DNA of 50,253 nucleotides, from positions 214,184 through 264,436 of the forward strand of contig WELB01000017.1 of assembly GCA_009602725.1 (NCBI GenBank), read 5' to 3'. The notes under the pieces are model-generated. The model worked only from the letters and a program-made list of their open reading frames with translations. It made no database searches and was not told the origin of the DNA. The position numbers and the translations under genes are program-made. Positions 10,716-46,482 of the stretch are shown piece by piece. The stretch comes from Spirogloea muscicola (lineage: Eukaryota). Position 1 is the first letter of the stretch. Every line of letters begins with the position of its first letter.

Positions 10716-13700
10716 CTAGACTGCCAAAAATTCTGAAATTGTCTGGCCTGGGGTGCCCGGAGCAGCCTCAGCTGCAAGTGACTGGCTTTTGCAGTTGCTG
10801 TGGATGGGTGGCTTCTGCGGCTTATGGGAACGTTTGGCTGATGCGAGCTGCTTGTCCAAGAGCAAGGGCCTGACGTCAACCTGAAAACCTGCATCTCTAA
10901 GCTTTCCTGCCGTGGCGTCTGCATCATCCTGGAGACAGAAAACAAGGCTGCATTTATTTTCAGCACAGATGACAATGCAGACTGCAGACAACATTGCAAA
11001 TACGGAGCATGAGAATACAGAGCCATGGAACTGTCATAGAACCAGGTTGCCACAATTGCTATTGCAGTAATGGCCTTTGCTTACTGTGTTGGAAGTGGGG
11101 CCGAAGTAGACGTACTCCAAACAGCCGGCCTCGCCCAACCTGGTTAGGTCGAGTGCCCTCTCGCCCTCATCCCCGAGCTGCTGTGTGGTGGTAGCACCAT
11201 CACCCTCCCGAGTTCCCAAGCGGAAGGAGGCCGTTTCATCCAGCCCCAAGGCATTGTCGCCCTCGGCCCCAGGGATGATTGTGATGACAACAGGGACGGT
11301 GTGAATTACCTGGTTCTTCCGCCGCCTGCCTCGCTGCTGCAAGCCCCTCCCAGCTAGGACCCGCTCCAGGATGTTCTGCTTGCTCTTATCAGTGGCCTCG
11401 GCGGGCGTCAGCTGCACGCACACGATGCGCGCCTTGTCAATCTCCACTGCGCCGCGCACCATGATCTGCATGTCGGCTGGGCTCGCAGCTGCCAAAGCCA
11501 AGCCAAGCCCCAGCTCGTCGCTAGCAGCCTCCTCTTTCATCCCGGCACTCTTGCGGTCCCCCCGCCGCTCCAGCTCGCCATACACCAGCAGCAGCGCGTC
11601 CTCCCTCAAGAGATCCTTGACGCTGGTGTACGCGGGGTCAAATATGACGCCCTCCAGCTGCCCCGTGCAGTCATCCAACTGCACTGTGGCAAAGTGGCGC
11701 CCAGCCTTGGTCACCTTCTTGGTGACCTCCCCGACAAGCACCGCCATCGTCACGAGCTTCCCTTCGTTCTCAGTCTCGCCTACATCGCAAAGCTTCAAAG
11801 GCACCGACCACTCCGGCAGGCGCTCCAGCAGAGGGCCTATTGGGTGGTCTGGCCAGTACCCCAGCAGGTCCTTCTGCTCCTTGCACCGCTCCTCGCGGCT
11901 CTGCTGCACCCGCGCGGCCTGCCTCCTCTCCTCCTCCTCCTCCTCTGGGCTTGCCACTGCTTCCGCAATGCTTGCCGCCGCATCAGCAATGGCACTTGCT
12001 TTCCGAGGCCTCCCTTTTCTCTTTGCGCCCTTCTTCAAAGCTGAGCCCTCACCATCTTCCCCTGTTTTGGCCTCCACTACTGACAGGTTCGTGGTGGCCT
12101 CGGCCGTTTGTGAAGCTTCTCCAGCAAGCAGCAATGCACCATCTACCTCTTCATCGCCCCCGTCGTGTGGCCTGGCGCATGCACTGGACAAGCTATTGCT
12201 GCTACTTGCTGCTGTTCCATTCGGCAGGCTGTCCATATCCTGCTTTTGCTTCTTCTCTTCCTTCGCCGCTCGCCGTCGTTCCTTCAATGCCTCCTTCGAG
12301 CGTCGGTCAAGTTCTTCCTCAAGTACTTTCCACATCCAGGCCCGATTCACCCCCCTCCTTCCATCTCCATCCTCGTCATCGTCAAGATAATCAGCGCCCA
12401 AGCAGTCCAGTGCGCCGCTGCCAGAGAGGGCTTTGAGAGCCCGCTTCGGCACCACCTTCACATCCACTCGCTCGCACAAGGCCATCACTGACTTGAACGG
12501 GCCACCTTCATCTCGGATTTTGAGAAGTGCTACCACGGGTCCCTCGCCAATGTGCCTCACTGCCGTAAGGCCATGCCGTATAGCCCCAGTTGGATATTTG
12601 CTCAACATTTCAGCTGACAATGAATCGGCCTCCTTCCCTCCTCCGTGCCCTACGTCTGTGATCTCAACGGCAGCAGACAATGCATCATTTGCAGAGCTCC
12701 CTTGGTCATCGTGAAGCCCCTCCAGGTGTCCAGCTGCTGGTCCAACTCGTGCGATGGTGAAGTCCTCTCTTGATTCATTCAGGCAAGGAAGGAGGAGCTC
12801 AATCCTCATGGCTTGACACGCTGCAATGTAGCGCCTTATCTTGTCTGTGTCACTGGTGGCACAGCTCATAAGAGCAGCCATGTAGGCAACTGGGTAATTT
12901 GCTTTCAAGTATGCTGTCATGTAAGTAATGTACCCATATGCAGCACTGTGGCTCTTGTTGAAGCAGTACTCTGAAAATTTTACCTGTAAACCAGAAATTA
13001 CCAAGAATCATTCAGCAGAATCAAGTACATGGCCCCTCTGAAAGGAAGACACAAGCAAGTCGTCTGTGCTCCTGCTGATCAATATGTATGCAAAGCAGCC
13101 ATCTCCGTGTCTTTGTGTCAGTTTGTAGAGTTCACCATTAGTGTGTCAAGGGCTGAGTAGGCAACATCTAGCATACATGCGATGCTCTAGCTCAGGTGCT
13201 CACCATGGTTTCAAAAAGCTCCTCAGCAACCTTGGCCTCAACACCCCTGTCAATGGCCCCCCCCACAAACCTCTTGCGCTCCCTCTCCATATCTTCTCGC
13301 TTCTTCTTCCCCATAGCTCGCCGCAGTAGATCTGCCTGGCCAAGGCTGTAGCCTGCCAAGTCCCTGGCCATGCGCATAATCTGCTCTTGATAGAGGAGCA
13401 CGCCGTATGTCTCCTTCAGAATGGGCTCAAGCTCTGGAGTGGCATATTCAACCTATCAGGACAAGATCAGCACCACAGTTAGCGGCACTTGACAAAGACA
13501 ACCCAAAAGCAATACTATGCTGGGCATGGAGCAGAACATATAGCGGTCACATGATGGCAGGTAGCTGCTTTGGTTGATTTGGGCAAAGTTGGTTGATACA
13601 CAGACCAAGGTCAGGGTCATTGCATGCCTGCTTTACACCGTGCTTGCGATTGATGTACTCCTGCACCAGACCAGCATCCAATGGTCTGTTTGCAGGGCAT

Positions 13701-16700
13701 CAGACATGGCCACTATCAAGCTACAGCCTTGCATGAGGGAGAATTTTGTCAAGCTACAGCTGCCGAAGTCAGTAAACGAAGATGCCATACCCAGGACGGT
13801 AAAGGGCCAGAATGGCAAAGATGTCCTGGATGCGGGAAGGCTTCAGGTCTCTCACAACGTGCCGCATGCCACCAGATGTCTCCAGCTGCAATATCAGCGG
13901 CCATTGCGAAATTGGTGTGGAGCAATATCGACAGGTTTTTGTTTACAGGTCAGACGCAAAAAAACACAAAAAACCCAGGAGGGCATGAGCTATGGCCATA
14001 CCCTGCGCCTTAAATCTGAGAGCCACCCGGCGAGGCGGTGGCACTCAGAAACTCATGCATCCAGGAAAGCAGAGCAATGCAACAGACCTGAAAGATGCCG
14101 TCAAGATTGCCCGAAGCAAGGAGCTCGAAGGTCTTCTTATCATCAGTGGGCAGCTTTTCCATTGGGGGCAGATCGTCCCTAGAGGACTCTTTAACAAGCT
14201 CATAAGCCTTCCTGATCACTGTGAGGTTCTTTAAGCCCAATAGGTCCATCTTCAGAAGGCCCAGGGACTCAATGTCATCCATAGCATATTGGGTCACAAC
14301 TGCCCCCTGGTTGCCTAGAGCTCGCTGCAGCGGAACTGCCTGCATTGATAAAAGAAGAAATCAGTTGCATATTAAGCATTAGCCAAAATCATTCCTGTCT
14401 CTTGTGACCTCGGAGTGTTACAATCGTTAATATGGACAATGTGACCTACCTGTGCAGACCCTAAAGCTTGTCACTGCGGCCTGCAGGTTTGTGTTAGTGT
14501 GTAGTGTGTTTTCTGCGGCAAAGACATCACCCTGATTGTTTGCTAACAAAAGCAAGTGTGTGCATGGACTGAGTACCTCATTGAGCGGACGCGCAGCATT
14601 TGAAATCACAACACCGGCAGCATGGACCCCGAAAGATTTGTGGGTTCCTTCCAAGCATATGGCCATGTCGACCCATTTCTTGGTCTATGTTGCATAACAA
14701 AGGGGTATGTCAGTTGGAATTGCATCTGCTAGTTGTCGCAGGTGAGCACTTTCAAGTTTGTCAGCTTGTGTCCTTCTCACAAGCAACTGTTGGATGTTCT
14801 TTCTCCAATGCAATTATGATAACGTTCTGATCAGATGTAAAGCATTTGCGTACCTCTGGGTCTTGGTATATGTGAAGGAAGTCCTTGGAGGGTGAATTGT
14901 CAGACACCATAGCCTCTAGTCTCGTTGCCTTGCCCCTCACAGTTGGAACCTAATACCAGGGAGCAACGCCGTGTGCCTCTTGGAAATTGTGAGAGGACCA
15001 TTGCTGATCCGAGGTCTTAGGTATCACATACCCTGACATATGTGACATAGTCTACTAGACTAGATTCACCTGTGTAATACACTATGAGAATAGATACTCA
15101 CCATTTTGGCAATTGAATTAGTCTCAGCATAAGACAGGCCCATCACTCTGCCAACATCCTTCAGTACTGCTTTTGAAGTGAGCCGATTGAAAGTTGCAAT
15201 TTGCGCAACTCTCTCTCTCCCATACTTTGTGGTCACATACTCAATAACCTGCACCATGATCCTCGGTCATTACCATGACAATCTGGCAGTACCTTAGTAT
15301 TAAGGCCACTGGGCTCCCCAAAGCATGCCTTTATAGCATTAGGGCCCAGAGCTATTAACACAACGCCCTTTCCACTTCGATGCAAGCCTTCTTGACCAAT
15401 TCAAGACTGTCATAAGTGGTTCTACTAAAAACGAACAGTCTGCCAAGATATTCACGCCCAGCCCATTGATTATTATGTCATACTGGCACTCGCTCGAGTT
15501 CATTGATACCTTGTCTCGTTGTTCTGGACAAAAGTCGGTATCAATATCTGGCAATGAACGCCTCTCCTCATTCAGAAAACGCTCAAAAAGGAGCCCTGGC
15601 ATTGAAAATGTCCAGTGTATAATAAGACAGGCATTAGAAGCCCACACCTACAGGAGGGCCAGCAGGACATCTGCGCAAAGATTGACAGCATAAGTTCCTT
15701 GTAGTATGTCAATGAGTGTCCAAGATCTGACATACCATGCTTCACAGGGTCGATGTTGATGATGGATAGGGCATAGGCGACCAAAGATCCAGCAGCTGAA
15801 CCCCTGAAGAGAAGTGCCCCGTCAAGTTGAGAGATGTGACATGATCTGGCAAGCTCAACACTCACCGCCCCAAATCCAACATGACATGGGAGGCAATTTA
15901 CTGCACCTGCCAGGTCCAACCGGGATGTTGCAGTCACGAGCAAACTTGATAATGTCCCACACCACCTGGGGAGAGCAAGGGGCTTGCTTCTCAGCTGCAC
16001 CTCCTCCAGTCTCTTGTCAATGCACGGTGCAAGAGACTGAAGGACTGCAAGCTGAGCTCACAGTAGCAGACTTGTCAGGTAATATAAGACAATGCAGCTT
16101 TGACACCAAAGACGAACAGACAAGCCCCTGATAAGCAAGTAGCTTGCTTCGTGACAGCCATCAATACAAGGGCCAAGTTGACAAAATAGGCAGCTATACA
16201 AGGAAATATGCTGAGAAGCCCTGAGAAGCAATGACTGCCAACTCCGTTCTCAAGCGGTCCAAGTACACGGCAGGTACATCTATCATGGATTCCACCTCCA
16301 ATTTCTTGCACAGCCCCTCCTGAGCAACAAGCTGGCCGAGTAACAGAACACCGCAAAGGTCACAGATGCTTAATGCTACCGCTCTTGTCATTCATGCAGA
16401 TTGTTGTCTGTCAAATGTTGGAGTGCTCCAATTTCTACTTCACCCCAGTGTTGTGCTGCTGGATGCTGTGATCCCATCCCACTCAACTTACTTCGAGATA
16501 AGAGCTTTCGTCATGGCCAGGTGGTACATCAAAGTTAGGAAGTTGAGGTGCTTTGAAGAGTTGGTAATCTGACACCTGAGAACATTGCAGAGGCATATTC
16601 AATATTGCTCTGTCTAATATGTCAGTGTCACAAAGTACACTTCTTAAAACACCACTTCGTAGATTCAAGATGTTATAGCATCCCTGTCAATACAACCATG

Positions 16701-19700
16701 CAATGATCTACAGATACAAGATCTCTGAAGCAACACAAGGTGCATGTCAAACACCTTGGAGGCAATAACAGCAGTGTTGGCAATTGCAGATTGAACAACT
16801 TCTTGAGGCAATGTCTTAAATGAAGCTATCATCTCGTCCCTTGATTTCAGGTACTCTTGCCCACTGCCACAAACATGATCCCCATATTTCAAAATTGCAT
16901 GAGCAAAATTTTTCACAGGTGAACTGATGCATGGAAGCTGACCTGCACCTGCTTACCTGTATACTAATTTTGGCTTCTCAGTCAACTTTGAGCCCGTCTG
17001 CCAGTGAGGAGAAATAACACCACAATCTGTCAAGGTCAGCTTGTTGAAGGGTCATAAGAAGATAGGTCATATGTCAGGTCTTGAAAGGGAGCATTCCCTC
17101 AGCATGCTGTTCACACTGATCAGAGTTGGTGGGCTTCACATGAGAAGCTGCTCAATATGCGGTTAGCAACACATGATTACGCCCAACGAGCACTGAAGAT
17201 GCACCTTAATGCAGATCAGGGCCTTGTGCGAATCAAAATCACTGCAATGTGTAAAGTGAGAGTCATTGGTAGCAACTACATCTATATCCTGAGAACCACA
17301 AACACAAGGGTAGTCAGTTATTGGCATTTGTCTGGATAGATAACGTGCATAGAGGATGTGCAGATTGCTGGAACAACTTGTTCAAGTTGCTATTTGACCT
17401 ATCTTGCAGTCACAATAATTCAGTGTGCTCTTCAATTTGAAACGCAACGTACCAATTGTTGAGACAACTTGAGGATGCCTTTATTGATAATTTCATTGTC
17501 ATGCCTGCTGTGGTCCATAACTTCTAAGTAGTAGTCTTCACCAAACACTTTCTTGTGCCTAATGTCACAAAATGCAGCAATCTGCATTCAGTAATGCTTC
17601 CCCTCCTTGCACAAATGAGAGACTTTTCAGGTGGGAAGAGATACTGGCAAGGACATGTGCTAAGAACGCACCAGCTTGCAATCTCCTCAGCCCTAACCAT
17701 GTCCTGCTTCAGTAGCGCTTGGGCCAACTGATATCACCAGCATGTCACATGTACATGGCAGGTGCAACTTTCAGTAGGTGCAACTTTCAGTTAGTGCTTT
17801 CAATGCTCCAACAATGGAGCTCCAAAAGACTACGACAACATCTCCTTCCAGGTTGAGACCAACTGACTGGGCTGTGCAATGTTCAATTACTGCTCTCTCA
17901 TATGAGACATGCTGCAGGGAAGGAGTGACTAGCAGTCACCTCTCCAGACTGACAACCAGAACAAATAATAAGGCCCTCACTGTGAATCTGAAGTAGCTCT
18001 CTGCACATCACCCAGTTATTCTGAATCACGGCACGTTATGATCAGCGAATCAGCTCACAGATGACAACATGAAGCTATATAAGATAACAGTATCTGCATT
18101 TATAGTTCATGGCATCAGGGTGGACAGTATGTGACAGAGTATCTACACTTATCTGCAAAAGCACAGGTCACCACTTTTCTTGTCACTACTTTGAGAACAA
18201 GAGCAATTTGCAAGCCTGACTAGGAGGACAAAGTATCTGCCAAATGTACGCATAGTGACCACATATAGCAGTACATGTGGAGCGGAAATTGCCTGCTGAT
18301 GCAAGGCCTGCAAGGCCTGCCCTGCAGAAGAACATTGAAGAGGTTTGTATTCTGTGAGTCGCTGTTGAGGCACAGTGACCTAGCCCAGGCTTGACCAAGT
18401 AATATGAGGACAACAGATTCAGTTGGTGCAATCTGACCTTACCCCAAAAATTTTACTCTTTGTGTGAGACTTGACCTTGAGAATGCAAGCATCTCAAGAC
18501 AAACGGACAAGGTTTTCATGAGGTGCCTTGATTTGTGCATGTCCTACATCTCACAAGCAATCAATTACTCTACCAAAGAGGTGACAAGCTGACACCTACC
18601 TCCATTCCATGCAAGTGGGATTCACTGGTTAGCTTCACAAGGTTCTTGTACCCGTTGACGTCCTTTGCAAGAACTGTCAAATGGTACCTACAAGCAGATG
18701 CAAGGAGTTTGTTAGCTCTGCCAATCCAGAAAACGTTTTTAAGATCTGATTGCAACACGATGTTGGCCTTCTTATGACGGCCTTAGGGAATGCACAGCAG
18801 CCCTACACTTGCTCTGACCTTTTGCGTTCCTCCTGCTGTCCCTCGTTTCCATGTGCTATGTACATCTCATTTCCAATTATAGGCTTAATGCCAGCTGCTT
18901 TGCAAAGCTTCACAAGCTCTATTGCTCCGTACATAACTGCAAACATGGGCAAACAGTGGTGATGTGTTCATCATGGAATCTGCAGTATAACAATGATATA
19001 CGGTTGAAGCACCAGGAACACGTTTAGAAGAGCAAAGCGACAAGAGCCTGTCCAACAATACAACAATGTGGCCTGCTGCAACAGTATCTTGGTGCTCAGC
19101 TAAATGCATCACCAGAGGAACTTGCACCACCAAGTAGGGGTAAGAATCCCTCCAGACTCACCTCCATGGTCTGTAAGGGCCAGAGCTTTCATCCCCAGCT
19201 CCTTAGCCCTCTCCACTAGAGCAGGCAACTGCCCAAATGTTAATGCAACCAACACAATTAGCAGGTCAATCAAGAGCCAGGAACTCTCCATCACCTTCAT
19301 GTAGAGCAGACTGATGATGCTGACAGATTGAGAAAAGGAGTTCAAAGATCAACAATTATCTTGTCATTCAGTGTCAGCAATTATCTTTGTATCTGCATCC
19401 TGGAAGCGTCTTACTTCACACTCTTATCCTGATAGTGACCGAGCAATACATTCAGGCAGCACACCTGGCTCGCACCGTCAAGCAGGCTGAAATCGCTGTG
19501 CACATGGAGAGGGACAAAATCCAGCGTTGCCACCTCTGATGAGGTGCCCTCTGCCGGAACCTCTGTAGCTGCTGCGTTGGTCAAAGTCGTGTATGGCCCT
19601 GAGCTGCTTGACTGTATGGCAGCTAACGAAATAGGCCTCCTGAGCAGAGCCGGAGAACCAGGTAGCGCTGCAGATACGAAGGAGTATCCTCGAGGCCGGC

Positions 19701-19881
19701 AAGGCCTTGGGAAAGCGCCTGCACCGGCGAGGCAGCGGCTGGCCGGTGGGACGCTCTTGCGGACAATCACGTGGAGCACAACCGCGACTCTCGCTCCGAG
19801 GGCGTGTAGGCCTCCGCGCCACATGGCGCGGCACCCCGCGCCGGCTGCGACGGTGGCGCCGGGCGGGCCGCCGAGGGACAT
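10716..19881 (-). CDS. dnaE: DNA polymerase III alpha subunit (DnaE), cyanobacterial type, about 22 exons, with an N-terminal organelle-targeting-like extension
   Basis: PHP domain: [18 protein letters not shown] (exon 19881-19465), ALTDHG (19228-19162), [25 protein letters not shown] (~17260). Polymerase core: [35 protein letters not shown] (15596-15510), [57 protein letters not shown] large exon at 12983-11085 carries [16 protein letters not shown] and the OB fold. The last exon is 10928-10716. An alternative start at 19824 is possible. Confidence 0.93.
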
Positions 19882-20523: not shown

Positions 20524-23298
20524 ATGGCTCTCGCCGGAGGCTCCGCGGCGGCTGCTCCGCTTGCCGCCGCCGCCGCCGCCGGGCCCATGGCGATCCTCTG
20601 GGACATCGAGAATTGCGGCGTGCCTGGTAAGCACGAACGCTGGGAACTGTCTCGCCATCGTCTCGCCTCGCCGTTGGAGGTCCCTTTGATTGTGAGGAAA
20701 GCCATGCTCGCGGCTGATGGGCGCGGCTGGCTGGTCTGTCGGTGGAGCCCGGCAGGGCAGGTGCCGCCGGAGGACGTGGCCGGCAACATCCGCGGCGCGC
20801 TGCGCGGCCACCCCGCGGTGCGCGGCGCCGCCGTTACGGCCTTCGCCGCCTACGGCGACTTCAACATGTTCCCCAAGAAGCTCCGCGAGGGCTGCCAGCA
20901 CACCGGCGTCAGCCTCATCGACGTCCCCAATGGCAAGAAGGACGCCGCAGGTCAGCTGGAAACTGCCAGTGTCCGATAGATATCACCTCTGATAATTAAC
21001 GACCTCCCTCGTGGCAGCCAGCAGCAGGTAGCCACTGAGTGCTGTCGTGACACCGTCCTCCATTGGCGGCGAGTGCAGACAAGGCCATCCTCGTGGACAT
21101 GTTCCTCTTTGCGCTCGACAACCCGCCGCCGTCCACCATCCTCCTCATCTCCGGCGACGGCGACTTCTCCCCCGCGCTGCACAAACTCGCGCAGCGGGGC
21201 TACGCGGTGCTGCTGGCGGTGCCTGCAGGCGTCGGCGTCTCGCCGGCGCTCGTCAGGCATGATTCCACCTCCAGATCACGGCACAGCCTTATGCAAGAAA
21301 CCCATATGCTCAATCGACGTACAAATTATCCCAGGGCCTTGTTATCAGATGCAATGGCAAGAAGTGCGCCCAATCTGCCGGAGGCACGTGCAGCTTAACA
21401 TCACTAAGCAGGCAGCTGACTACGCTTATTAAGCTCACACATGCTGCGTTATGGCTATCCTTCCTGGCCGCAGAGCTGGCAGCTACGTGTGGGACTGGCC
21501 ATGCCTGGCAAGGGGGGACGGCTTAGTACCGGCCAAGTGCGCAATTCCGTACCGTCTCAGAACGACCTCAACATGTGGGCCACTCCACGGCACGCCGCCA
21601 CCACACCAGCCGCCGCCGCACCTGTCACAGCGCAGCGAAGGGGGCCATCCAGTCTGCGTCAATGGCCAAGTTGGCCAAGAGAGGTTGTGTGTCTATGCCT
21701 CAGCACACAGCAATTTGGTCGCGGCAGACTACAGCTTGGAGTCAGACCAGAACGAACGGGGCCAGCCACCAAATGATGGCCATTCTTCAGTTCATGGAAC
21801 TGGTCACAGGTGGTCTCCTGCTGCCGTAGAGGGTGGAGCGTTTCAAGATGTCAGCCCGAAGAGCCTGGCAGCCTATCTAGCAGGAGCCCCCTTGACAGGC
21901 CTTGCTGGCCCGCACGACATCGCACACAGTGCGAGCACCGGTGCATCAGTGGCCACGTCAGCGCCCGGTGCAGTCTGCGATGATGGAAGAGGCGGCGGCC
22001 ATGAGGCCGTCCCGGCATCTTGCGTAAGGTACAGCCAGCAGTCCGTGCAGCGGTCGTTCCAGGCCTGGGAGATGCACCCCAAGTACCATCCCCTGACCAG
22101 CACTGGCGCTGGAGGTGCCACTGCAGCAACGCCTCCTGCTGCTGGCGGCATCGGGCTCGAGGGAGACCCTACTGACAGACAGGGCAGCGTCGGCAGCGCC
22201 TTCGTCCAGCCTGGGGACCTGCAGGGCCTGAAGCGCCAGCTGGTCGAGCTGCTGCGGCTCCATGGCGGCCGGCTGGCACTTGTGCGGGTGCCGACCGAGT
22301 ACCGGCGGCACTATCAGCGGCCGCTGTACCTTACTGAGTATGGCGTCCCTAAGCTCAAGTACCTGCTAGAGCGGATGAGGGACGTGCTGGACGTGCAGGG
22401 CATTGGCGTCCGGAAACTGTTGGTTCTCAGAAACCCAGCCGCGAGGCAGCAGTTGCTGAAGCTGCAAAAGCACGGGGTGGCGAACGACGGCGACCAGAGG
22501 GTGGTCAAGGAGAGAGCCGATGCGGAGGCACAGACGAGCGGGACTGAGGAGGAGAGAGAAGTGGCAGCACCCGAGAATGCAGACGAAGTTGACGTGAAGT
22601 TGGGCAGGATCAGTGATTCGTCCCAGGTTGTCATCGTCAACACGACGCTGCAGGATACGACCTCGGACCCAGAGGAGACAGAGGAGAGCGAGGTAGAGGA
22701 CCCGGACGCGTTTGCAGCAACCGAGGCGTCCTTGACAGCAACATCTGAGCAGAAGCTGCTACAAGCTGGAGGTGGACTGGAGGAGGCAGCCAGCTTGAGC
22801 TACGGGGCCGAGGAGGCAAAGGGCTCAGCTTCATTGAAGCTTGGGGAGCTACAGAGCGGCAGGGAAGGCGAGAGTGAGATGCCTCCCACCTGTGCACCAG
22901 TGCAGCACTCACACTCCCCCAGCATTCCTTTGGAATTGCCAGCGGCAAAGCTGGTCGATGAAGGCGATACCGCTGAAGATGACGGCAGCGTGATCAAGCG
23001 GGAGCAGCTGGAACAGGCACAAGAAGGGGGCATGGCAGCGGATAGCAGAGGCGTGATGCCTAGCGGACGTGAATTGGATGCATTTGCGTGGGACCTTATC
23101 GAGCTGCTCGTGAGTTTTGGAGGTCTCCTACCCATGCATGCATTGGAGGACCTCTACCTGCAGAGGTACTCCCGGCCCGTAAGCCTGGTGTCGCTTGGTG
23201 CTCGTGACTTAGTCAGCTTGTTTCATATGTACAGCCATGTGGTTCGGTTGGAAACAGTGGACGGCTTCCAGTGTGTAGTCTTGAGAGGATATGATTAA
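20524..23298 (+). CDS. NYN-domain ribonuclease with OST-HTH/LOTUS domains (MARF1/limkain-b1-like)
   Basis: Exons 20524-20626, 20756-20950, 21079-21256 and 21474-23298. NYN motifs: ILWDIENCGVP, AYGD, GKKDAADKAILVDMFLFALDNPPPSTILLISGDGDFSPALHKL. LOTUS-like segments: LKRQLVELL..VPTEYRRHYQRPLYLTEYG and LIELLVSFGG..YLQRYSRP. Confidence 0.88.
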
Positions 23299-37642: not shown

Positions 37643-38396
37643 AGAGCGCTGACTCACCCAGCTTAAAGCGGTTTACTCTTCGAGCTAGTTAGCACCTATT
37701 CTGTGCAAGGTCAACCGTAATTACAGAAGAACGCTTGCACTTGCAATCATTTGCACTCTTTGAGCTGATCTCAATAATGCATGCTGCATCAAGCTCAACC
37801 ATGGTCCGTGACTATGGGAGGCTTCCTGCAGCATGTACTCTTCCCTTCTGGAATTTAGTAAATGGAGAGGCTCCAAAGGTTCATCAACACATCACAATAT
37901 AGGAAGATCTGCAATATCCTGCTTCCCTGAAGCCTCCCTGGGGGTCGACTTGAGCTTCTTAGCTGTTGGTGCAGAACGTTGTCTAGTTTTGGCAAGAACT
38001 AAGTAAAGACCTTGTCCTGATGTCGTCAACCACAGAGCAGAAGTCATGGAGGCAATGCGAAGCTTCCTGAAGATATCTCAAGAAAAGTTAAAGACCTCAT
38101 TGGATGCTGAGATGTACACATAAACAAGTACGCCGCAACATGAGAATAATGTCAAATAGTAGGCAATGACTTGTGCCTGTGCTGGTTCATACAGAGAAAT
38201 TGATGAGGCAATTGACTTGTGCAATTCCCAATAGCGGAACTACGAGCAGGCCTCACTCAGTGCACAGTAAACTCCATCAAAGGTTGTGCAAGCTCGTCCA
38301 GATCTCAGGTGCTTTAGGAGCACAGCCAACGATACAACCACAACATTGCCGTCCCATAGGTCCTAGCTGCACCTGCTCACATGCACACAACAACTC

Positions 38397-38483
38397 GGCA
38401 CACTCCCTACGCAGGAATTATCCTGATCAGGTGACAGGGTATAATCTCAGCCCGAGCACTGATGCTCGAGCACCCCTGGTGCC
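38397..38483 (-). promoter_or_regulatory. TPP riboswitch aptamer C (distal) in the THI1 3' region
   Basis: Minus strand: GGCAC CAGGGGTG CTCGAGCA-tcag-TGCTCGGG CTGAGA TTATACCCTGTC ACCTGATCAGGATAATTCCTGCGTAGGGAGT GTGCC. P1-P5, UGAGA and the CUGA..GG.UAAU.CC.GCG.AGGGA core are all present. Confidence 0.95.
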
Positions 38484-38575
38484 AAAAGTGAGTCAGTACA
38501 GGTGTCGTCAAAGACATCAAAGAATGACAGAGGCAGCCTGTTTCCTGGGAACACAAATAAAGAACACAACCCATT

Positions 38576-38665
38576 GGCACACTTCCTTCGCAGGCATTAT
38601 CCTGATCAGGTCTTGGGGTATGATCTCAGCCCAAGCAACAGATCTGCTTGAGCACCCCCGGTGCC
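38576..38665 (-). promoter_or_regulatory. TPP riboswitch aptamer B (middle) in the THI1 3' region
   Basis: Minus strand: GGCAC CGGGGGTG CTCAAGCA-gatctgt-TGCTTGGG CTGAGA TCATACCCCAAG ACCTGATCAGGATAATGCCTGCGAAGGAAGT GTGCC. Confidence 0.95.
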
Positions 38666-38741
38666 AGATGGTCGTACGTCAGTATCAGAACAGACACCAC
38701 AAGCAGCATAGACCACCAGACAATGAGATCAAGACAGACAA

Positions 38742-38849
38742 GGCACTTCCCTCCGCAGGCATTATCCTGATCAGGTTGTAAGGGTATAATCTCAGCCCGC
38801 ATCATGCAAAGGCCAAAAGCCTTGCAGTATGCCGGGCACCCCCAGTGCC
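38742..38849 (-). promoter_or_regulatory. TPP riboswitch aptamer A (proximal) in the THI1 3' region
   Basis: Minus strand: GGCAC TGGGGGTG CCCGGCATACTGCAAGGC-tttt-GGCCTTTGCATGATGCGGG CTGAGA TTATACCCTTACA ACCTGATCAGGATAATGCCTGCGGAGGGAA GTGCC. It begins about 195 nt after the THI1 stop. Confidence 0.95.
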
Positions 38850-39043
38850 AACCAACCAAAGCAAGCACACTGACAACAAAGACAATACTGTCCGCCTGTC
38901 TGTCAGGCTCACGCCTAGCACTCCTCACATCCATCACTGTGCACACTATTGCTCATTGTTTTTACTACTGATGCAAGCAATGCAAATGATCAGTCTGGCA
39001 GGAAATAGTGCAGCACAGGAGGAGGGTAAGGCATAGTTGGCGG

Positions 39044-40713
<1,670 letters not shown>

Positions 40714-41504
40714 AGATGAGTGCAAGCGAGAGGGAGGGCTGAGAGCGGCAGGAGCGGCGGCGGCGGCGGCGGCGGCGGTCGTCGCGGCGGCGGCGGTGTG
40801 GAGCTGAAGGAGAGTAATGGCTAATAGAGGCTTGGCACTGCACCGCAGCCGCAGAATTAAGGGGAAAGCAGGTGCCTGCTGCCGGGGCCCATCGCGGCCC
40901 GTGTCCATCAGCTGCCTGTCACTATCACTGTGCTTTCCCGTGCGTGAAGTGAGCACTTTCAAGTGTGGGCCAAGGGCTGTGAAACGAGAAGGGGCTGTGA
41001 AAGGCAGGCCAGCCCAATAACAAACTTGAATGGCAGTCTCCAGCTAGCGGTGCAGACACGGGACGTCCCTCCAGCAATGCGCGCTTGGCCCCCTTCTGCC
41101 AAGACCGGCCCCGGGTGCATGCGCGACGAGTGACGTGTCGCGGTGATGGCGGATGCCGTCGTCGTCCCGTCGGTCGTCGTCGCGACCGCTCGAGATAGAA
41201 TCCGAGCCCTGGGCTGATCCCTCTCGACGGGGGGCCCTTGGCATCCCGCCGTCGTCGTGGCTAATGCCGCCTCACGCCGTCACTGCTCGGGCTCGTGCTC
41301 GCCGCGGCGATCCCGACCGCCTCGTCTCACTGGTGGGAGCGGGTCTTCTGAGAACAAACGGGCTCCGACGCTAGCTCCCTTCTAATTTAGGGCCTGTTTA
41401 CACTTGTGAGAAAGAGCCCCCCCCCCCTTCCACTAGGGGTCCCGTCTGAGGACGACGAACATCGAGAAAGCATCAGTGTGTCCCCGCCTCCCTCCCTCCG
41501 CGCC

Positions 41505-45492
<3,988 letters not shown>

Positions 45493-45897
45493 TTGGACTA
45501 CTAAATACGTGAGTGGCCTATAACCACCATATACATGAGTGCGTGCAAATCCGGTATGTCTCCTTCTGCATTCCAGATATGTGCAGTGTGCATGCTTCAA
45601 GCATCTGTTGTGCTGTAATCAAGAACTCTGCAACTTGCCATAATCTCCTTCGTCCCCTACGTTCTCAGTCGTCTCTACTATGGGCTTTTGCAGGTACCAG
45701 AGCATCACGCATATGCAGCTCAGGGCTGATTTGAGTTGGATGCTCGTTTTCAGAGGCTGCTGTAGTCTGCATGCTGAGTCGTACTGGTCATAGACTGCTC
45801 TTGGATGCGCCACAGGAGGCTTGTCTGCCCTAGACCTTGGAACAGCAGGTTGCATTGGATTGTTTTCCATTTGAGAAGAGTTGTGGCTAACTATTTC

Positions 45898-46015
45898 GGC
45901 ACCGGGGGTGCTTGCTTGAGGTTCACCATCCCCAATACAGGGGGTGGTGACTGAGAGCAGGCTGAGAGAGTCCCTTACAACCTGACCAGGTTAAGACCTG
46001 CGGAGGGAGTGTGCC
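45898..46015 (+). promoter_or_regulatory. TPP riboswitch aptamer in the THIC 3' UTR, with a long P3
   Basis: GGCAC CGGGGGTG CTTGCT..TCACCATCCCC-aataca-GGGGGTGGTGA..AGCAGG CTGAGA GAGTCCCTTACA ACCTGACCAGGTTAAGACCTGCGGAGGGAGT GTGCC, about 405 nt after the THIC stop. This is the known position in plant THIC genes. Confidence 0.95.
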
Positions 46016-46482
46016 GAATATTCGTTGTGGTTTGTGCTGTGCAGGACTTTGCAGACGTTCATGTGCAGGTCGTAATCAAGTGGAGGACTGCAATTACTGT
46101 TTCACATGTCAGGCATCTTGCATTGATAGCTTGCTATGTTCACTTTCTTTTGTTGCATCGTTACGCTCTTGCATGCAAGAGCGTCCTTGACTAGTAAGGT
46201 GGTTGCATCGTGTTAGATCAAGCATCTGGCCAACTGTAAAGCGTGTGGTCAGTGGGCGTGGTTTTAGTCTAGTAGCAAGGATAGCTGGATGGGCTGACTA
46301 GCACCTCCGTTTTGTCAAGTGGACGGGATGCGACGTCCCTCTTGCTGCTTGTATTGAAAATAAAACGAGACAACCGCTTTGCTATTCTGAGACATAGCTT
46401 GGCATAGGCTGGGTTGTTGTCTGCGCTGCAGCGCAGGAAGTACTTAGCTTCATGTAAGAAGCAGCGTGGTATTTGTCTCCTT

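What the first reader, a model, noticed from the sequence alone, without database searches (positions are those of the whole stretch)
10716..19881. Nuclear, intron-rich, cyanobacterial-type DnaE: a candidate organellar family-C replicase in a green alga
Seen: an apparently intact DnaE spread over about 22 exons, with PHP metal ligands, the catalytic DIDTD motif, an OB fold and a ~120-aa Ala/Arg/Ser/Pro-rich extension before FVPLHVHS. It sits among ordinary eukaryotic genes, so it is not contamination. Segments that recall cyanobacterial DnaE include HG-x-x-[24 protein letters not shown](T)[19 protein letters not shown] and the short C-terminus LTPAEA..VPVV..YFG..DAGF. Known: plant organelle DNA is replicated by family-A POP enzymes, and the endosymbiont's Pol III is generally considered lost. 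Inference: this is an endosymbiotic or horizontal transfer retained and re-targeted to an organelle, implying a second, little-studied replication or repair system.
Basis: partly seen in the sequence, partly recalled or inferred. Interest (0 to 1): 0.8.

Follow-up and report, generated by a model that had tools for sequence, protein, structure and literature searches.

The report
Bacterial replicase in land-plant sister algae
The algae closest to land plants carry an intact, spliced nuclear gene for the cyanobacterial chromosome-copying enzyme DNA polymerase III alpha, likely sent into the chloroplast, although this enzyme is described in print as absent from plant organelles.

Summary
Confirmed. 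The minus strand (19881-10716) holds a 25-exon gene giving 1573 aa without an internal stop. Contigs of one probable RNA run join across 13 of its 24 introns (12 at exactly my length). It is a DnaE1-type Pol III alpha with all nine PHP metal ligands and three catalytic aspartates. The matching public record and two 88-89% paralogs are from Spirogloea muscicola; orthologs occur in Chara, Mesotaenium and Closterium. The algal proteins form one clade (100) with private insertions, inside or at the base of oxygenic cyanobacteria, so the gene entered once, before the Chara/Zygnematophyceae split. Endosymbiont origin versus later transfer is unresolved (AU p 0.19-0.48 for all four constraints). The 121-aa leader resembles plastid leaders in the same window, but targeting is untested. 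The beta-clamp motif survives in Chara and is lost in Spirogloea and Mesotaenium; no algal clamp was seen in one weak search. Best reading: a self-proofreading, clamp-free plastid polymerase working beside POP, not a full holoenzyme. Harada et al. 2024 state Pol III is absent from plastids and mitochondria; my literature searches found no report of this gene. The scan's notes held nothing similar.

The parts
10716..19881 (-). Whole dnaE gene, 25 exons, 1573 aa
   Evidence: same span as public model P0001
19519..19881 (-). 121-aa N-terminal leader, no Asp/Glu before residue 107; candidate organelle transit peptide; second Met at residue 20
   Evidence: targeting inferred
19465..19881 (-). exon 1 (aa 1-139): leader, PHP H126, H128, D135
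19162..19228 (-). exon 2: PHP H160
18819..18936 (-). exon 3: PHP E185
18600..18687 (-). exon 4: PHP H203
18293..18321 (-). exon 5 (29 nt, GC donor): RPCI loop, 2 aa shorter than in cyanobacteria and Chara; splicing of this copy not shown
17940..18000 (-). exon 6: PHP C256
17672..17727 (-). exon 7 (PHP)
17453..17558 (-). exon 8 (PHP)
17205..17288 (-). exon 9: PHP D323, H325
16957..16997 (-). exon 10
16755..16863 (-). exon 11
16492..16575 (-). exon 12
16200..16331 (-). exon 13
15907..15965 (-). exon 14 (start of GPGRGS motif)
15736..15803 (-). exon 15
15510..15595 (-). exon 16: catalytic D523 and D525 (PDIDTD)
15102..15248 (-). exon 17 (Pfam DNA_pol3_alpha)
14854..14949 (-). exon 18
14577..14684 (-). 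exon 19: first alga-specific 2-aa insertion after HAAG
14088..14339 (-). exon 20: third catalytic Asp D684 (KMDLLG)
13791..13885 (-). exon 21
13628..13685 (-). exon 22 (GC donor, confirmed by a 175-nt joint)
13204..13452 (-). exon 23 (fingers)
11085..12983 (-). exon 24 (aa 871-1503): intein-free EY|CFNKSH site, HhH, inserts, OB fold, C-terminal domain
11889..12248 (-). degenerate clamp-motif site (QKQDM where Chara has QGSLF) followed by a charged insert, most of it predicted disordered
11553..11741 (-). OB fold (PF01336)
10716..10928 (-). exon 25 with stop codon

Best explanation
This is an intact, spliced nuclear gene for a cyanobacterial-type DNA polymerase III alpha subunit (DnaE1), shared by Chara and several Zygnematophyceae, whose product is likely imported into the chloroplast and is predicted to work there as a self-proofreading polymerase without a sliding clamp. 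Shown: gene structure, splicing, motifs, single algal clade, cyanobacterial affinity. Inferred: the leader directs import; the palm aspartates extend primers; the intact PHP site removes mismatches without an epsilon subunit; loss of the QxxLF motif makes the zygnematophycean enzyme poorly processive or tethered by other means, so it most likely does gap filling, recombination-linked or lagging-strand synthesis beside POP. The gene entered once, in or before the common ancestor of Chara and Zygnematophyceae, which on the accepted species tree means the land-plant line had it too. I put a later horizontal transfer from a cyanobacterium at about 60% and descent from the plastid endosymbiont at about 40%.
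For: Open frame over 25 exons. Joints across introns 11 and 13-24 in run X1. Nine PHP ligands and three catalytic Asp in the window protein and in the algal homologs, one ligand not matched by pattern in P0121; D23, E73, H107 and D226 of the M. tuberculosis enzyme are metal ligands and D23N/D226N lose exonuclease activity (PMC5636811 passages). Best NCBIfam model PRK07374, far above the error-prone DnaE2 and PolC models. Algal clade support 100 in every tree, topology Chara,(Spirogloea,(Mesotaenium,Closterium)). Private insertions: HAAG-to-QY spacing 27 in four algal rows measured (Chara by alignment) versus 23 in all 32 oxygenic cyanobacterial rows. 13 of 19 listed core differences among paralog contigs are synonymous against 22% expected. 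Leader free of acidic residues to position 107, similar to the THIC and THI1 leaders of the same window (first acidic 68 and 62) and unlike the NYN gene (27); leaders of 108-178 aa in Chara, Mesotaenium and three Closterium records. QxxLF absent in Spirogloea and Mesotaenium, present in Chara and in 93 of 108 bacterial hits.
Against: No targeting predictor or localisation experiment was run; the leader is Gly/Ala/Arg-rich, poor in Ser/Thr, and has a second Met that could start a mitochondrial presequence. Three Closterium records begin with a short acidic N-terminus (probably truncated models, not checked). Chara keeps a perfect clamp motif, which is odd if no clamp exists; Closterium has a QKKLL in the insert. 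The clamp search is weak. POP in this alga is assumed from the literature, not shown. This copy has a 2-aa shortened loop in exon 5, whose splicing is not shown.
Confidence: 0.5

Rival explanations
1. It is the main plastid replicase of these algae, part of a retained or rebuilt Pol III system with a beta clamp or a substitute processivity factor.
For: DnaE1 type with intact PHP, OB and C-terminal domain; Chara keeps QGSLF; kept in three copies in Spirogloea and in every genus where found.
Against: Clamp motif, present in 99% of DnaE1 (PMC3919608 passage), is lost here; none of 10 N-terminally extended DnaN hits checked was named as eukaryotic; POP is reported in all eight plant and algal species surveyed, including Klebsormidium (PMC4166229 passages).
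Confidence: 0.17
2. It works in mitochondria, or in both organelles through two start codons, as POP does.
For: Arg-rich, acid-free leader with a second Met at residue 20 in all three paralogs; a cyanobacteria-derived PolI of Chlorophyceae was tentatively called mitochondrial (PMC10877234 passages).
Against: Cyanobacterial origin and resemblance to the THIC leader; the Mesotaenium and Closterium leaders are Ser/Thr-rich, as plastid leaders usually are (general knowledge).
Confidence: 0.23
3. It has been re-purposed for the nucleus or cytosol (repair), or is a slowly decaying relic.
For: Long branches, low-complexity inserts with basic runs that could act as nuclear signals, shortened exon 5 loop in this copy.
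Against: All catalytic and metal residues kept across Chara, Spirogloea, Mesotaenium and Closterium; spliced contigs; excess of synonymous differences; long leaders in all four genera.
Confidence: 0.1

Closest known systems
Cyanobacterial DnaE1 (Pol III alpha; NCBIfam PRK07374; Gloeomargaritales, Chroococcidiopsis, Cyanothece PCC 7425)
   Same: 57-60% identity over the first ~750 aa, domain order, PHP ligands, 38-aa PHP loop (Chara, Closterium), C-terminal domain layout
   Different: Nuclear, 24 introns, 121-aa leader, long inserts, no clamp motif in Spirogloea/Mesotaenium, no intein although many cyanobacteria, including one Gloeomargarita, split the gene at that site
Thermus aquaticus and M. 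tuberculosis DnaE1 with intrinsic PHP exonuclease (PDB 2hpi, 4iqj, 5lew, 7pu7)
   Same: Best solved relatives by sequence and fold; PHP ligand set and catalytic triad align
   Different: Those act in a bacterial holoenzyme with clamp and clamp loader
POP and other family-A organellar polymerases, especially chloroPolA (cyanobacterial PolI acquired by Chlorophyceae)
   Same: Nuclear-encoded polymerase of bacterial origin, restricted to one algal group, long-branched beside cyanobacteria (PMC10877234 passages)
   Different: Family C, unrelated fold; different algal group
Pol III of the Paulinella chromatophore
   Same: The one case of Pol III in a photosynthetic organelle named in PMC10877234
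   Different: An independent, younger endosymbiosis; there the gene sits in the organelle genome (recalled), here it is nuclear and intron-rich

Membership tests
Family C / DnaE | PHP - Pol3 core - HhH - OB - CTD order | tested here: met
   TIGR00594 and PRK05673 above cut-off
Family C / DnaE | Three catalytic aspartates | tested here: met
   D523, D525, D684, aligned to Taq, E. coli and Mtb enzymes through P0001/P0002
DnaE1 | Intact nine-residue PHP metal site | tested here: met
   H126 H128 D135 H160 E185 H203 C256 D323 H325; the H203 equivalent rests on motif and the Taq alignment; five of the nine Mtb residue numbers are recalled
DnaE1 | Phylogenetic placement with DnaE1, not DnaE2, DnaE3 or PolC | tested here: met
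   Groups with cyanobacterial DnaE; error-prone and PolC models score far lower and below cut-off. No DnaE2/3 rows were in the trees
DnaE1 (holoenzyme replicase) | Beta-clamp motif QL[S/D]LF after HhH | tested here: not met
   Absent in the window protein, its paralogs and Mesotaenium; present in Chara
Pol III holoenzyme | Partner subunits (DnaN, DnaX, HolA) in the same organism | tested here: inconclusive
   No genome held; one DnaN search, 10 of the top 150 hits checked, none named eukaryotic; DnaX and HolA not searched
Cyanobacterial PRK07374 equivalog | Score above curated cut-off 1653 | tested here: not met
   1324 for P0001, 1575 for Chara; still the best model
Split-intein DnaE of cyanobacteria | Intein at EY|C | tested here: not met
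   Contiguous in all algal rows
Organellar DNA polymerase | Import into plastid or mitochondrion | not testable with these tools
   Leader composition only
Endosymbiont-derived (EGT) gene | Sister to Gloeomargaritales and broad presence in Archaeplastida | tested here: inconclusive
   AU p 0.23 and 0.48 for that grouping, but two other groupings also not rejected; only four algal genera seen in capped searches
Active polymerase / exonuclease | Biochemical activity | not testable with these tools
   needs purified protein

The most novel reading that the evidence does not exclude
This is the plastid endosymbiont's own Pol III, moved to the nucleus and kept working in the chloroplast along the streptophyte line up to the sisters of land plants, so that the hand-over from Pol III to POP was not complete at the origin of plastids but ended by repeated late losses, the last on the way to land plants; Chara (clamp motif kept) and Zygnematophyceae (motif lost) would be two stages of that hand-over.
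Probability: 0.3. Interest if true: 0.92.

Novelty: new variant of a known kind. Interest (0 to 1): 0.78.

Why it matters
[quoted passage not shown] A conserved, expressed family-C polymerase with an import-type leader in Chara and Zygnematophyceae is a direct exception whichever its origin, in genera that are grown in the laboratory, so the question becomes testable. It also offers a natural DnaE1 that has lost its clamp motif but kept its proofreading site.

Tried and rejected
Contamination: rejected (introns, eukaryotic neighbours, three paralogs, four genera). Pseudogene: rejected for the family; slight doubt for exon 5 of this copy. Plasmid or phage donor: best tblastn identity 41% in both collections against 53-55% for cyanobacteria. 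The public model P0001 differs from mine at exons 5-6 and at the exon 22-23 junction; mine fits the 175-nt joint and the conserved spacing of 39. No run on record as RNA was listed; X1 is 'RNA?' by guess. Introns 1, 2, 4-8 and 12 have no joint in the part of the table shown (12 rows hidden); that is no evidence against splicing. Metagenome scan: 9 loci, 29-52% identity, none looked algal, not examined further. ESM Atlas: only generic DnaE clusters, no taxa. The careful 50-row tree did not finish in two runs; all trees cited are FastTree or quick IQ-TREE. Four rows were dropped before for misalignment or short fill (P0231, P0286, L092, P0038). With distant outgroups the algae fall to the base of oxygenic cyanobacteria; without them they move inside, so the basal place is probably long-branch pull. 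Intein status was considered as a donor marker and rejected: it is patchy even within Gloeomargaritales. One search, meant to reveal more eukaryotes, listed only Chara and Spirogloea and lost Mesotaenium and Closterium below rank 120, so absence from other algae and land plants is not shown. Three look-ups in earlier scan notes gave nothing relevant.

Full report
Observation. Three-frame reading of the minus strand and a splice-site scan give 25 exons from 19881 to 10716. Joined, they give 4722 nt and 1573 aa with one terminal stop; 22 introns are GT-AG and 2 are GC-AG. Exon 24 is 100% identical to public record P0001 (SM000017S02790), whose locus has the same 9166-nt span; P0002 and P0003 are 89 and 88% identical paralogs, and the source names both as Spirogloea muscicola. 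That this species has a triplicated genome is recalled. Eight of 30 flanking frames tested hit Pfam, among them PET191, V-SNARE, OST-HTH, Thi4 and ThiC.

Expression. One run holds the stretch (X1, RNA by guess, contigs only). 67 records were laid, 28 of them 99% or more alike. The 15 joints shown (12 hidden) map to 13 of my 24 introns, numbers 11 and 13-24; twelve have a joint of exactly my length, and intron 15 shows 141 with one letter between against my 140. Two further joins with letters between span introns 9-10 and intron 3 (table 5c). All 40 differences shown (99 hidden) lie in exons; 13 of 19 in residues up to 945 and 11 of 21 beyond are synonymous, against 22-24% for random changes (no correction for transitions, not a dN/dS). 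The contigs mix the paralogs. A loose end after exon 4, read by hand, gives a paralog a full-length GxxIxxRPCI loop, whereas this copy is two residues shorter (spacing 36 against 38); splicing of its exon 5 is not shown.

Protein. All nine PHP ligands and three palm aspartates are present in the window protein, both paralogs, Chara, Mesotaenium and two Closterium proteins; one ligand pattern was not matched in P0121 and P0072 is a fragment. Alignments to Taq, E. coli and M. tuberculosis structures agree. PMC5636811 (passages) shows that this site is a zinc exonuclease that loses activity in D23N and D226N. NCBIfam ranks PRK07374 first (1324 bits, below its cut-off), then PRK05673 and TIGR00594 above theirs; error-prone and PolC models are far lower. 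An AlphaFold model of exon 24 (mean pLDDT 70, pTM 0.66) keeps HhH, OB and a C-terminal alpha/beta part, with four low-confidence inserts; its best fold matches are Pol III alpha structures. The beta-clamp motif, found in 99% of DnaE1 (PMC3919608 passage), is QGSLF in Chara and matched in 93 of the 108 bacterial hits, but is absent in Spirogloea and Mesotaenium; Closterium has only QKKLL. The segment around it grows from 70-74 aa in four cyanobacteria to 120 in Chara and 176-321 in Zygnematophyceae. The leader has no acidic residue before 107, like THIC (68) and THI1 (62) in the same window and unlike the NYN gene (27); that THIC and THI1 are plastid proteins is general knowledge. This is a three-gene comparison, not a prediction.

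Relatives. Three capped searches (best 120 of about 8000 candidates each) found named eukaryotic homologs only in Chara braunii, Spirogloea, Mesotaenium (Mesen1) and several Closterium strains; all named non-algal hits are cyanobacterial. One search missed Mesotaenium and Closterium, so absence elsewhere is not shown. Identity over the N-terminal 750 aa is 67% to Chara, 57-60% to oxygenic cyanobacteria, 49% to their non-photosynthetic relatives and 41-47% to other bacteria.

Phylogeny. The algae are one clade at 100 in all trees, with Chara first and Mesotaenium with Closterium. With oxygenic cyanobacteria they form a group at 99. With distant outgroups they attach at its base; without, they sit above the KaiC-less clades (98), unresolved beside Pseudanabaena and Gloeomargaritales on 754 columns and inside the remaining crown at 86 on 1150 columns. 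AU tests reject nothing: with Gloeomargaritales p 0.233 and 0.475, with Chroococcidiopsis plus Stigonema 0.272, with a Leptolyngbya/Synechococcus-type group 0.186. Alga-only insertions support one acquisition. The narrow range seen favours later transfer, as argued for chloroPolA (PMC10877234 passages); the tree leaves the endosymbiont open.

Partners. No genome is held. A cyanobacterial DnaN found 39,241 representatives; of the best 150, the 10 with the clearest N-terminal extensions were looked up: three clusters are named cyanobacterial, one carries only a gene name, six are unnamed, none is named eukaryotic. This is weak.

Mechanism. Shown: structure, splicing, motifs, clade. Inferred: import, activity, clamp independence, division of labour with POP. 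I commit to a plastid, self-proofreading, clamp-free accessory polymerase (0.5); rivals are mitochondrial or dual location (0.23), main replicase (0.17), re-purposed or decaying (0.1).

Literature. Eight of ten searches sought a report of DnaE in these algae; no listed title or abstract start describes one. I read passages, not whole texts, of PMC3914683, PMC8227023, PMC6523293, PMC4166229, PMC10877234, PMC3919608 and PMC5636811; PMC11135702 had no occurrence of the terms. Supplements were not opened, and gene-transfer tables of genome papers outside the library may list this gene. UniRef already labels the Chara protein as Pol III alpha, so it is annotated but, as far as these searches reach, not discussed.

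Verdict. Real and surprising; a new variant of a known kind; interest 0.78.

Noticed in passing
window 38386-38853 (minus strand): Three TPP riboswitch aptamers in tandem (Rfam RF00059, 63-72 bits, all above the gathering score) just downstream of the THI1/THI4 gene. A triple array in a eukaryotic 3' region looks unusual; one literature search (listing only) did not settle it.
   Followed up: partly
window 38950-46026: THI1 (minus, start near 40713) and THIC (plus, start 41505) lie head to head about 800 bp apart, and THIC has its own TPP aptamer at 45894-46026: a two-gene thiamine cluster under riboswitch control.
   Followed up: partly
window 20524-23298: An intron-containing gene with an OST-HTH/LOTUS domain and an NYN-like start (label recalled) begins about 640 bp from the dnaE start on the opposite strand; a shared promoter is possible.
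   Followed up: no
window 18293-18321 and 13452-13628: The public model P0001 misses both GC donors and so differs from the spliced form at two places; the models of the paralogs also differ around exon 5.
   Followed up: yes
P0072 (Closterium sp. Yama58-4): The record joins a DnaE C-terminal part to an unrelated FG-GAP-type protein (PF13517), probably a gene-model fusion.
   Followed up: no
L003 versus L001, L004: DnaE is intein-split in Gloeomargarita sp. SKYG116 but contiguous in two other Gloeomargaritales records.
   Followed up: partly
P0377, P0404, P0437, P0440, P0493: Several cyanobacterial-type beta clamps carry charged N-terminal extensions of about 45-125 aa.
   Followed up: no
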